DNA of 64,000 nt, from NCBI GenBank assembly GCA_918797485.1, contig CAKKNE010000003.1, positions 2,480,001 through 2,544,000 on the forward strand. The letters are read 5' to 3'. The DNA is from Pelagomonas calceolata (Eukaryota). A model generated the notes under the pieces. The model did no database searches, had not been told where the DNA came from, and saw only the letters and a list, made by a program, of their open reading frames with translations. Of the stretch, positions 50,368-52,598 are shown piece by piece. Each line of letters begins with the position of its first letter. Positions within the stretch are counted from its first letter, which is position 1. The position numbers and the translations under genes are program-made.

Positions 50368-50462
50368 CAGCGCGACCTTTATGCAACCCGCACGGAACCG
50401 GGCAGGCTTCACTCCGTTCAACTTGGCCGGGTTTTCCCCCTCCGTGCACACTAACACTAAAT

Positions 50463-52338
50463 TTAATCTCCTCCACCCCACGGCCGGGGCACGGGCATGC
50501 CGTCGGCGTCGATCTCGTTCATGCGCCTTACACCAGCAAGGCCCGCGTCGATTATCGCCTTGTTCACCGCGAGCGCGGCGGCCTCCTGATCATCAAAATA
50601 GCCGATGTGGCGCTTGACGGTGTTCGCATCATTATAAGTCGCCCGCCACTGCTTGCTCTGCTTGCGCGCCCAGGTCACGCCCCAGTACTTGGACTGTTGG
50701 GCCGCCGTCGGATCTCTGAGAGGGGGCTTCAGGGCCAGTTTCCCGTCGACGACCGGATTCACCTTGCGCACGCCTTCCAAGCCCGCCTCGCGAATCGCAT
50801 CATTATAGGCGTAGGCCGCCTCCTCCTCGTTCCCATAACGACCTACGCTCTTTCTTTTCCCATCACCATCGGTATACTGCGCCCGCCAGACCCTTCCTTT
50901 TCTATCCCACGTGACGCCCCAGTACTTGCTGACACCGTATTTCGTCACCGCGAGGGGATCAGGCGCTATGACCGACGCCTTGGCCCGCCGATGCGGCGCG
51001 CCCGGCGGCACGAGCACACCATGCTCGTCCACCGCATTCATCCGACGTCTACCCTCCAGGCCCGCGTCGAGCACCGCCTTGTTACGCGCGTAGGCCGCCT
51101 CGCGCTCGTCGTCGTACCGACCTATGGTTCGATCCTTGCCATCTAACTCGTTGAGAGTGACTTTCCACTTCCTCCTTTTTTCATCCCAGGCCACGCCCAC
51201 GAAACGACTCACCCTTTTAGCCCAGTCCTCGATGTCGTCTGAAGTGGCTTCTGAAGGCTCCTCCACGTCCTCCTCTTGAAGGGCCTCCGCGAGCTCCCGC
51301 CGTAACCGATCGACTTCCGATTCTACGACAGGGTCGCACCGTTGTGCGATGTATTGCGCAGATTCTGAGAGGGCGTCCTCGGCCTCCCTGTGTGGCACGG
51401 ACACCGTCGCGAAACTGTCTCCGTGCACTCGCGAGCGATGCGGCATCGCGACGGACGCTGCGTCAGCACCTGAGGAACTTGGGGAAGAGCATAAAGTCGT
51501 GGAACATCTCCTCGTAGGTTTTGTGTGTGACTTCTGTGCCGGAGGCTTTCGCTGTTAGTGCTAGCGTCAAGGCATCAACATGCAACGTTTCCTGCTCTCC
51601 ACTTAGTATCATCATATCGTCGACGCCGGACGCGGTCAGAGCGAAGGCGTGGCGCGCGTCATTTTGTTCGTCGTTCACGTGTCTTGCCGGTTGTAACGAC
51701 GAAACGTCCAGAAAATCGCCGTCCGAAGATAATGACCGTTGCACATCCTTCGTCGGGTGATGCAGCAGGTAGGGGCACCAGAGCAGCACGCCCGCTGGTT
51801 TACTTGAGAGTTGTTGCGCCGCCCTTAGTGCTAAGTAAGCGCCGGCGGAATCACCAGCTAGCACGATCGGACCGGTCAGTTCATTGTACTGCCCGACGAC
51901 GTCGTTTACTGCATCAGCAATAGTGAACTCGGGCGCTCTTCTATATTTCGGCAATAAAGCCGTACACCCACCGGGCACGCGCGCGATCAGCGAAGCGACG
52001 GCTCCGCGATACGCGTGCGGGCTGCCCGCAAAGAAACCGCCGCCGTGGACAAAACAAATAGTGGCCTTCGATTCACTATCTCTAGGCGCGATGCGCACTC
52101 CACCATAGTCCGTCGTCGTCGCCTCGTGCGTGCTCCCTAAATGGGGGCAGCGCGCGTTGCCCCGTTCCATCAGCTCCTCGAAGAGCGTGCGGTTCCGCTC
52201 GACGTCGCCGCCGGCCCACCAGGGCGTCTTGCGGATGGCGTTTAGCAGTTGTTTTACGACGGGTCTCTGTTGTTTTTGTTCCGGTGGTGCCGTGCTGCTG
52301 CGGCGCAGGCTTTGGGCTAGCGCGCGGCGCAGCATCAT
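50463..52338 (-). CDS. HSL-family alpha/beta hydrolase fused to three AP2 domains, 2 exons (52338-51470, 51387-50463)
   Basis: HGGG, GDSAG, E, MFHDF; predicted intron 51388-51469 supplies the missing helix REAEDALSESAQYI in frame with 3x (Y/F).GV.W...W...G.(Y/F)..E.EAA.A.N. Confidence 0.75.
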
Positions 52339-52598
52339 TGGCTTCAGCAGCAGCGCGTGTGGCAGCACTGATCAGCAATGTGGGTGCTGGATGAATCAGT
52401 CTTCGTCGCGTTCGCCTTACGCGCTGCTGCGAGCCGTCACTGCCAGCACAAGCCCTGGTGCTTTGCTGATGCGAACAGGTTCCCGCGCAGCGCTTCGTTG
52501 GCGCAAGCCAACTCAATAATCAGTCGAATGCAATAGTTAACGTAGGCTCAACGCAACTATGCGAGCCGCTGGGACGAGTTTTGTCGGCTGAAGTGCTT

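What the first reader, a model, noticed from the sequence alone, without database searches (positions are those of the whole stretch)
50463..52338. Hidden fusion of an HSL-family esterase to three AP2 DNA-binding repeats
Seen: the hydrolase ORF stops 16 nt before the AP2 ORF and lacks its terminal helix. An 82-nt intron (CAG|GTGCTG at 51469 ... CCACACAG at 51388) gives FPKFL-R-EAEDALSESAQYIAQR, the expected HSL C-terminal helix, and this frame runs on through three AP2-like repeats. HGGG, the GDSAG serine, the acid residue and the His appear intact. The N-terminus (MMLRRALAQSLRRSS) looks like a mitochondrial presequence. Established: the HSL fold was co-opted as a small-molecule receptor in plant GID1. 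Inference: a one-component ligand- or lipid-sensing DNA-binding protein, possibly organellar, or a recent read-through fusion.
Basis: partly seen in the sequence, partly recalled or inferred. Interest (0 to 1): 0.8.

Follow-up and report, generated by a model that had tools for sequence, protein, structure and literature searches.

The report
Esterase fused to three AP2 repeats
In a tiny ocean alga, one spliced gene joins an intact bacterial-type esterase to three AP2 repeats; the join is kept by selection and already sits in the public gene tables, and the protein is predicted to enter mitochondria, where the repeats would likely hold the enzyme on DNA or RNA.

Summary
The 82-nt intron (51469-51388) is spliced in 11 reads from 3 of 4 RNA runs. 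The spliced frame is letter for letter the annotated 597-aa Pelagomonas calceolata protein CAH0371487.1 / Pca_3p14330, already tabulated as PF07859+PF00847, so the fusion is not hidden. It is not a recent read-through either. A wild allele (L003) lacks the intron and reads straight through. A second lineage (hydrolase 72% identical) has the same fusion in one ORF. The AP2 part is under stronger purifying selection (dN/dS 0.02-0.04) than the esterase (0.07-0.10). More distant relatives (45%) are stand-alone esterases ending right after the exon-2 helix, so the AP2 array was added later, from a large, shuffled family of HNH-endonuclease-type AP2 repeats. The triad S164/E250/H280 is intact, unlike GID1, so an active enzyme is likelier than a pure receptor. 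An Arg/Ser-rich presequence-like N-terminus is shared by all lineages with a complete start. Best reading: a mitochondrial esterase tethered to organellar nucleic acid (inferred, about 0.4). Ligand sensing is untested. About half of the junction reads are unspliced, and the AP2 half has 2-7 times the read depth, so a short AP2-only product remains possible.

The parts
51470..52338 (-). Exon 1 coding part: presequence-like leader and HSL-family (Abhydrolase_3) esterase without its last helix; codons 1-289 plus 2 nt of codon 290
52270..52338 (-). Predicted mitochondrial presequence-like leader, aa 1-23 (4 Arg, no Asp/Glu in the first 18 aa); scored by composition only
   Evidence: relaxed dN/dS 0.17-0.53
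52036..52047 (-). HGGG oxyanion-hole motif, aa 98-101
51841..51855 (-). GDSAG motif with nucleophile Ser164
51589..51591 (-). Glu250, aligned with the acid-residue position of solved HSL esterases
   Evidence: alignment to 3k6k and 6y9k; role inferred from the alignment
51499..51501 (-). Catalytic His280
51388..51469 (-). 82-nt GT-AG intron, phase 2, polymorphic among wild alleles, about half spliced; holds the premature TGA (51465-51463) and an in-frame ATG (51446)
50463..51387 (-). Exon 2 coding part: last esterase helix, linker, three AP2 repeats, stop
51336..51386 (-). Terminal helix of the esterase fold, aa 291-307
51222..51332 (-). Linker aa 309-345: helix plus acidic stretch (pI 4.05), 38-40% identical in the second lineage
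51000..51209 (-). AP2 repeat 1, aa 350-419
50721..50930 (-). AP2 repeat 2, aa 443-512
50484..50693 (-). AP2 repeat 3, aa 522-591
50430..52550 (-). Approximate transcribed span (sense reads in all bins except one low-depth bin in X22); ends are approximate

Best explanation
One gene, split by a recently gained 82-nt intron, encodes a 597-aa protein in which an intact HSL-family esterase is joined to three AP2 repeats; it is predicted to be imported into mitochondria, where the repeats would likely tether the probably active enzyme to organellar DNA or RNA. Shown: splicing, the single frame, the two folds (by profile and model), the intact triad, purifying selection on both halves, and a stand-alone state in more distant relatives. 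Inferred history: a stand-alone, presequence-bearing esterase captured a three-repeat array from a lineage-specific, HNH-endonuclease-type AP2 family before Pelagomonas and a sister lineage split; introns were later inserted at several sites. Inferred function: the two halves act as largely independent beads on a flexible acidic linker, the AP2 array giving position and the esterase hydrolysing small acyl esters there, without allosteric sensing. Import, catalysis, nucleic-acid binding and the substrate are untested.
For: Splice reads and identity with the annotated protein. L003, a genomic contig spanning both neighbouring genes, has no junction intron. A second lineage has 7 of 7 listed members with esterase helix, linker and repeats in one ORF, 6 of them full length; identity to P0081 is 72% (hydrolase), 38-40% (linker) and 42-43% (AP2). 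dN/dS against wild loci at dS 0.4-0.9: hydrolase 0.07-0.10 in 7 of 7, AP2 0.02-0.04 in 5 of 5 computed. All 12 of 12 outgroup proteins that reach the His end 30-35 residues after it. Triad intact in 20 of 20 homologues at His and Ser. Model TM 0.82 to EstD11 by target length. Three separate beta3-alpha units with low-confidence spacers and pTM 0.57 for the whole chain. Leaders are Arg/Ser-rich, with no acidic residue in the first 18 aa in 11 of 12 homologues that have a leader, including the stand-alone outgroup. Precedent for mitochondrial AP2 proteins binding RNA: PMC11652630 (passages); Toxoplasma mitoribosome chains rank 3-7 in the fold searches.
Against: No targeting predictor could be run; the leader is short (19-27 aa in Pelagomonas-type alleles) and was scored by composition only. 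In the published table, AP2 domains of this genome pair mostly with nuclear or chromatin domains (MYB, PHD, SET, Tudor, HSF), which favours a nuclear role for the repeat family. The AP2 half has 2.2-6.7 times the read depth of the esterase half and about half of the junction reads are unspliced, so the full-length protein may be the minor product. Repeats 2 and 3 of the two fused lineages are closer to free paralogues (56-66%) than to each other (43-44%), and the repeat tree is unresolved. One fetched protein, P0209, ends 36 residues after the His, shortly after the helix; its DNA could not be seen. RNA evidence comes from one sample, and no read or contig was shown to span the whole transcript.
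Confidence: 0.4

Rival explanations
1. Two products from one locus: a long mitochondrial esterase that merely carries the repeats, and a more abundant short AP2-only protein made from an internal start or the retained intron (ATG at 51446, or Met278/283), which would act in the nucleus. Selection on the repeats would come mostly from the short form.
For: AP2 half 2.2-6.7 times deeper than the esterase half; the three runs with ratios of 5-7 have unspliced reads (5, 6, 2), the run with ratio 2.2 has none. The 327-aa intron-start ORF is in the collection as P0080, sources JGI/IMG and mmetsp. The other AP2 proteins of this genome look nuclear.
Against: Depth rises gradually towards the 3' end in X21-X23, as poly(A) selection would give. 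No pile of read starts lies near the junction (table 6). The intron ATG is missing from the intron-less allele L003 and is not seen in the type-B intron translation. The frame through helix and linker is open in both lineages, and the linker has dN/dS 0.06-0.21.
Confidence: 0.2
2. One-component sensor: substrate or product in the esterase pocket would change DNA binding by the AP2 array and so regulate transcription, in the organelle or, after release, in the nucleus.
For: Input-like and output-like domains lie in one selected chain. Bacterial relatives of the same esterase group carry an N-terminal LysR-type HTH (4 of the 19 longer homologues scanned: P0133, P0138, P0155, P0377), a convergent pairing with a DNA-binding domain. 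Recalled, not from a call: D14/KAI2 receptors keep an intact triad, and E. coli Aes inhibits MalT.
Against: The GID1 hallmark (loss of His) is absent. The model gives no confident packing between the halves (pTM 0.57; aa 332-350 and 402-444 under pLDDT 50). The linker is only 38-40% identical between lineages. The gene was not found in the nitrogen-response supplementary tables of PMC12054182.
Confidence: 0.15
3. The full-length protein is nuclear or cytosolic: the Arg-rich leader is not a presequence, and the AP2 array brings a de-acylating enzyme to chromatin.
For: AP2 domains in this genome accompany chromatin domains, and one accompanies an AlkB-like dioxygenase (Pca_3p11910). The repeats are basic, pI 9.2-9.5.
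Against: The leader character is shared with the AP2-less outgroup, where nuclear import would have no obvious reason, and it evolves like a transit peptide: variable in sequence, constant in composition.
Confidence: 0.17
4. Recent or neutral read-through: the repeats are a passenger tail, or the two ORFs are separate genes joined by a chance intron.
For: Half of the junction reads are unspliced. The repeat family is large and shuffled onto varied N-termini. P0209 ends soon after the helix.
Against: Intron-less fused allele L003, fused second lineage, AP2 dN/dS 0.02-0.04, and the esterase's own last helix lying in exon 2.
Confidence: 0.05

Closest known systems
CAH0371487.1 / UniRef100_A0A8J2SQE6 / Pca_3p14330 (Pelagomonas calceolata annotation)
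   Same: Identical 597-aa sequence, same intron and same neighbours; listed with PF07859 and PF00847.
   Different: Nothing in sequence. It is an unnamed table entry: 'AP2' occurs 0 times in the main text of PMC9481584, and its conservation, selection and history were not found described.
Bacterial HSL-family (family IV) esterases EstE7 (3k6k), Est8 (6y9k), EstD11 (7at0)
   Same: E 1.7e-20 to 4e-16, HGGG, GDSAG, Glu, His and terminal helix aligned; model TM about 0.8.
   Different: About 22-28% identity; they have no leader and no AP2 tail.
AP2 domains of phage HNH-AP2 homing endonucleases; plant tandem-AP2 factor WRINKLED1 (7wq5)
   Same: Three matches to phrog_99 (E 2.8e-25), far better than to Pfam AP2 (7.8e-12). 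WRI1 is the best solved match.
   Different: No HNH nuclease domain; three repeats rather than one or two; attached to an esterase.
Myzozoan mitochondrial AP2 proteins (mtAP2-1 to 4, Toxoplasma mitoribosome)
   Same: AP2 repeats with a mitochondrial leader; they bind RNA rather than act as transcription factors (PMC11652630 passages). Fold-level hits.
   Different: 12-23% identity, no enzyme domain, tied there to fragmented rRNA. At most an analogy.
GID1 gibberellin receptor
   Same: HSL-type fold.
   Different: GID1 lacks the catalytic His (PMC4728528 passages) and, from recall, signals through a separate DELLA protein. Here His280 is kept and the output domain is in the same chain.
Bacterial LysR-HTH + Abhydrolase_3 proteins (P0133, P0138, P0155, P0377)
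   Same: A DNA-binding domain fused to a GDSAG esterase of the same group.
   Different: N-terminal HTH instead of C-terminal AP2; independent origin; no functional study found.

Membership tests
HSL-family (Abhydrolase_3) esterase | PF07859 above the gathering score | tested here: met
   89.9 bits vs 25
HSL-family (Abhydrolase_3) esterase | HGGG oxyanion motif, GDSAG serine, acid residue, His | tested here: met
   H98-G101, S164, E250, H280 aligned to 3k6k and 6y9k; conserved in homologues
HSL-family (Abhydrolase_3) esterase | Complete fold including the terminal helix | tested here: met
   helix 290-307, pLDDT 90-96; TM 0.82 to EstD11; complete only in the spliced form
HSL-family (Abhydrolase_3) esterase | Ester hydrolysis | not testable with these tools
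   needs an assay
GID1-type receptor | Catalytic His replaced (Val/Ile) | tested here: not met
   H280 present in 20 of 20 close homologues; feature from PMC4728528
GID1-type receptor | Closest relatives among plant GID1/CXE proteins | tested here: inconclusive
   no GID1 name among the 42 PDB sequence hits or the listed fold hits; absence from a list does not exclude it
AP2 domain proteins | PF00847 above the gathering score | tested here: met
   42.7 bits vs 33.3 for P0081; 72.3 bits and 3 stretches for P0074
AP2 domain proteins | Three-stranded sheet plus helix in each repeat | tested here: met
   three units modelled at block pLDDT 85-95; Z 7.5 to 2gcc, rmsd 2.7 over 61 residues
AP2 domain proteins | Sequence-specific DNA (or RNA) binding | not testable with these tools
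   basic repeats, pI 9.2-9.5, is only suggestive
HNH-AP2 homing endonuclease | HNH nuclease domain in the same chain | tested here: not met
   PHROG matches cover only about 50-residue AP2 stretches; no HNH Pfam; the rest of the chain is esterase
Myzozoan mtAP2 mitoribosomal proteins | Mitochondrial targeting | tested here: inconclusive
   composition of leaders only
Myzozoan mtAP2 mitoribosomal proteins | Orthology and mitoribosome association | tested here: inconclusive
   fold-level hits at 12-23% identity, below plant AP2 hits; association not testable
One-component signalling protein | Input and output domain in one chain | tested here: met
   architecture; 'input' is an assumption
One-component signalling protein | Ligand-dependent control of the output domain | not testable with these tools
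   model shows no confident inter-domain packing, which is weak evidence either way
Introner element (junction intron) | Presence-absence polymorphism at the site | tested here: met
   type A in window and L004, type B 4 nt downstream in L001, L002, L005 and L007, none in L003
Introner element (junction intron) | Dispersed copies, about 210 bp, terminal inverted repeats | tested here: inconclusive
   82 nt here, 164 nt in L004; no second copy in the window; reads from another locus share the last 31 nt with one mismatch; criteria from PMC9481584

The most novel reading that the evidence does not exclude
A mitochondrial one-component metabolic sensor assembled within pelagophyte algae from a bacterial-type esterase and mobile-element AP2 repeats: acyl-ester turnover in the pocket controls binding of the three repeats to the organellar genome, while incomplete splicing of a recently inserted intron tunes the ratio of the sensor to an AP2-only form.
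Probability: 0.12. Interest if true: 0.8.

Novelty: new variant of a known kind. Interest (0 to 1): 0.42.

Why it matters
Both domains are textbook and the fused gene model is public, so this is not a new sequence discovery. What is new is the evidence that the odd pairing is real, old and selected. It arose inside one algal group, is kept in two lineages, and constrains the AP2 repeats more tightly than the enzyme within Pelagomonas. It is a datable case of an enzyme capturing mobile-element DNA-binding repeats, in an abundant, culturable ocean picoalga. If the protein is mitochondrial, it would be a second, independent recruitment of AP2 domains into mitochondria after the myzozoan mtAP2s, and the first with an enzyme attached that my searches found. 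The gene is also a compact record of intron gain: three states at the junction and three more polymorphic sites.

Tried and rejected
No whole genome was held for this window, so paralogue counts come from the published table (cut when stored) and from metagenomic proteins. Read evidence from independent studies was not obtained, so splicing rests on one sample. A complex prediction of esterase against AP2 array gave no verdict. Viral contigs: 2 pattern matches, 0 confirmed relatives of the AP2 part. L008 is a chance bacterial match and was dropped. The repeat tree (123 rows, 71 columns, quick method) is mostly unresolved; the join of the two lineages' repeat 1 is a long-branch join and is not used as proof. 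ESM Atlas returned only bacterial Abhydrolase_3 clusters at 0.86, none with AP2; it holds only clusters of 50 or more members. The library of 1.84 billion representatives gave 4 proteins under 1e-30, of which P0074 is the only long one; none of the 14 further longer hits from its top 150 that I scanned (with P0236 and 4 earlier hits, 19 in all) had AP2. Literature: 0 papers for AP2 domain + hydrolase + fusion + domain architecture + HNH; 1 irrelevant listing for AP2 + pelagophyte + transcription factor + stramenopile; 0 for AP2 domain + HNH endonuclease + stramenopile + horizontal; 0 for the LysR-HSL fusion terms. These are narrow all-term searches of an open-access library. The gene id was absent from the 3 supplementary files of PMC12054182 and from the main text of 10.64898/2026.09.29.755320 (its supplements were not seen). 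PMC5684705 was not held. Earlier findings of the scan: none in 3 look-ups. Rejected: the intron ATG as a conserved start (absent in L003); a GID1-like dead receptor (His kept); a homing endonuclease (no HNH).

Full report
OBSERVATION. On the minus strand, the hydrolase ORF runs from ATG 52338 to TGA 51465-51463, and an AP2 ORF opens at ATG 51446 and stops at 50465-50463. The proposed intron has donor GTGCTG at 51469 and acceptor CCACACAG at 51388, 82 nt, phase 2. Pfam finds Abhydrolase_3 in the first ORF (92.2 bits) and AP2 in the second (45.8 bits); the neighbours are a Dabb barrel, PheRS beta and a CLC channel.

SPLICING. Stranded poly(A) reads of four runs (one sample, 6-12% of each run read) give one joint only, skipping these 82 nt with GT..AG ends: 4, 3, 0 and 4 reads, plus 3 short-anchored reads in X21. 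At intron position 51403, the reads of this locus number 5, 6, 2 and 0 after removing 17 reads with another letter. Those 17 go with loose ends on both sides of 51387-51417, so they most likely come from another locus sharing the last 31 nt of the intron (inference). Roughly half of the junction-covering molecules are therefore unspliced. Sense coverage runs from about 52550 to about 50430. Mean depth over the AP2 half is 5.3, 6.7, 5.3 and 2.2 times that over the esterase half. This could be poly(A) 3' bias or a second, shorter transcript, and I could not decide between them. No read or contig was shown to span the whole message.

ALREADY ANNOTATED. Cluster 1 contains P0081, 597 aa, CAH0371487.1, Pelagomonas calceolata. 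The spliced window frame equals it letter for letter. Supplementary Data 2 of the genome paper PMC9481584 lists Pca_3p14330 with PF00847;PF07859, between a Dabb gene (3p14320) and a chloride channel (3p14340). 'AP2' has 0 occurrences in that paper's main text (I saw passages and supplement rows, not the whole text; supplementary file 5 could not be read and file 4 is cut). The fusion is thus in the databases but, as far as my searches reach, undiscussed.

THE FUSION IS OLD; THE INTRON IS YOUNG. Seven of the 8 metagenome loci are true relatives; four compared with the window and each other are 83-87% identical over the esterase DNA. Six of the 7 cover the junction. L003 has no intron there and reads FPKFLREAEDAL straight through; it is genomic, because it spans the CLC and Dabb neighbours and keeps another intron. 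L004 has a 164-nt version of the window's intron. L001, L002, L005 and L007 have a different intron of 129-139 nt, 4 nt further downstream. Among fetched proteins, 18 read into the first intron type and 10 into the second. Four Pelagomonas-type proteins besides P0081 are continuous at the junction (P0082, P0209, P0211, P0218); some may derive from transcripts. Three more intron sites in the AP2 part are polymorphic. The genome paper reports 956 putative introner elements, which fits this picture.

A SECOND LINEAGE AND AN OUTGROUP. Searching for longer proteins gave two fused clusters (P0074, P0075) among 5 hits. Their 7 members, on contigs of up to 81 kb, carry helix, linker and three repeats in one ORF; 6 are full length. 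Identity to P0081 is 72% in the esterase, 38-40% in the linker and 42-43% in the repeats. The taxon is not named; a related pelagophyte is my inference. A more distant group (P0125, P0126, P0236 and cluster members; about 45%) is stand-alone: of 17 examined, 12 reach the His and all 12 end 30-35 residues after it, and 5 are N-terminal fragments. These are ORF calls, so a hidden downstream exon is not excluded, but the stop falls where bacterial homologues end (median 29, n = 35). The simplest history is one capture of the AP2 array after that split. Against a tidy story, repeats 2 and 3 are closer to free paralogues (56-66%) than across lineages (43-44%), and the tree is unresolved, so later replacement or fast divergence of repeats is possible. 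P0209 ends 36 residues after the His and is unexplained.

SELECTION. Pairwise counts against the window gave dN/dS 0.068-0.101 for the esterase (7 of 7 loci), 0.062-0.209 for the linker (5) and 0.019-0.041 for the AP2 part (5), with dS 0.35-0.91; the leader gave 0.17-0.53 (5). L006 does not reach the AP2 part and L007's AP2 part fell out of the identity filter; poorly aligned codons were dropped. The AP2 part has fewer replacement changes than the esterase at p = 0.015, 0.024, 0.0001 and 0.06 in the four loci tested (the comparisons share the window sequence and are not independent). The repeats are therefore functional and no passenger.

THE ESTERASE. The best solved relatives are bacterial HSL esterases (3k6k, E 1.7e-20), and the alignment runs through the exon-2 helix to residue 308. 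H98-G101, S164, E250 and H280 are in place. The His and the serine motif are present in 20 of 20 close homologues. The AlphaFold model (52 rows; mean pLDDT 73, pTM 0.57) has helix 290-307 at pLDDT 90-96 and matches EstD11 with TM 0.82. GID1 receptors lack the His (PMC4728528 passages), so this is not GID1-like; activity is inferred, not shown.

THE REPEATS. Each models as three strands and a helix, separated by low-confidence spacers. The best solved matches are WRINKLED1, AtERF1 and TEM1, then Toxoplasma mitoribosome chains. By sequence they fit the AP2 part of phage HNH endonuclease families far better (phrog_99, E 2.8e-25) than Pfam AP2, but no HNH domain is present. PMC4117751 (passages) notes that most non-plant AP2 families are tied to mobile-element endonucleases or integrases. 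About 60 free paralogues of 44-60% identity have two or three such repeats behind varied acidic or shuffled N-termini, one with a U-box. At least 30 genes of this genome carry IPR001471; many of those with a second domain pair it with MYB, RING, PHD, SET, Tudor or HSF. The family is promiscuous, and this gene is one capture that became fixed.

LOCALISATION. Leaders before the conserved start are Arg- and Ser/Thr-rich, with no acidic residue in the first 18 positions in 11 of 12 homologues that have a leader, in both fused lineages and in the stand-alone outgroup. This fits a mitochondrial presequence (established knowledge), but no predictor was available. Mitochondrial AP2 proteins exist in Myzozoa, where they bind rRNA and are not transcription factors (PMC11652630 passages).

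MECHANISM. I commit to a mitochondrial, catalytically active esterase that the AP2 array tethers to organellar DNA or RNA, with the halves acting independently (0.40). That the fused gene is real, spliced and selected I put above 0.9.

VERDICT. Observation confirmed; interpretation partly supported. A new variant of known parts, already present as a gene model, now shown to be conserved and selected. Function open but testable. Interest 0.42.

Noticed in passing
P0133, P0138, P0155, P0377: Bacterial-type proteins fusing an N-terminal LysR-type HTH (PF00126) to a GDSAG Abhydrolase_3 domain: a convergent DNA-binding + HSL pairing. No paper found with my terms.
   Followed up: partly
P0010-P0066: Large, fast-evolving family of two- or three-repeat HNH-type AP2 proteins with shuffled acidic N-termini, one with a U-box; it looks like an ongoing lineage-specific expansion, possibly mobile.
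   Followed up: partly
L001-L005, L007; window sites 51469, 4 nt downstream of it, about 50755, 50740, 50650: Five polymorphic intron sites in this one gene among six wild loci; the window has only one of them. Two different introns sit 4 nt apart at the junction.
   Followed up: partly
L007:1064-1520: After an intron shared with L003, the contig continues into an unrelated Lys/Glu-rich frame instead of AP2 repeat 3: probably a mis-join across a repeated intron, possibly real recombination between introner copies.
   Followed up: partly
window 51387-51417: RNA reads from another locus match the last 31 nt of the intron with one change and have different flanks, so this intron end is repeated elsewhere and is retained in transcripts there too.
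   Followed up: no
window 50500-50950: Low antisense read depth (up to 3.6) over the AP2 exon, possibly read-through from the convergent Dabb gene.
   Followed up: no
P0175, P0177-P0179, P0075: Second-lineage proteins carry a 25-residue VPPTG-type repeat insert after the nucleophile helix that P0074 lacks: a tandem repeat or an in-frame intron.
   Followed up: no
P0209: A Pelagomonas-type protein continuous at the junction but ending 36 residues after the His: a stop allele, an intron read-in or a contig end.
   Followed up: no
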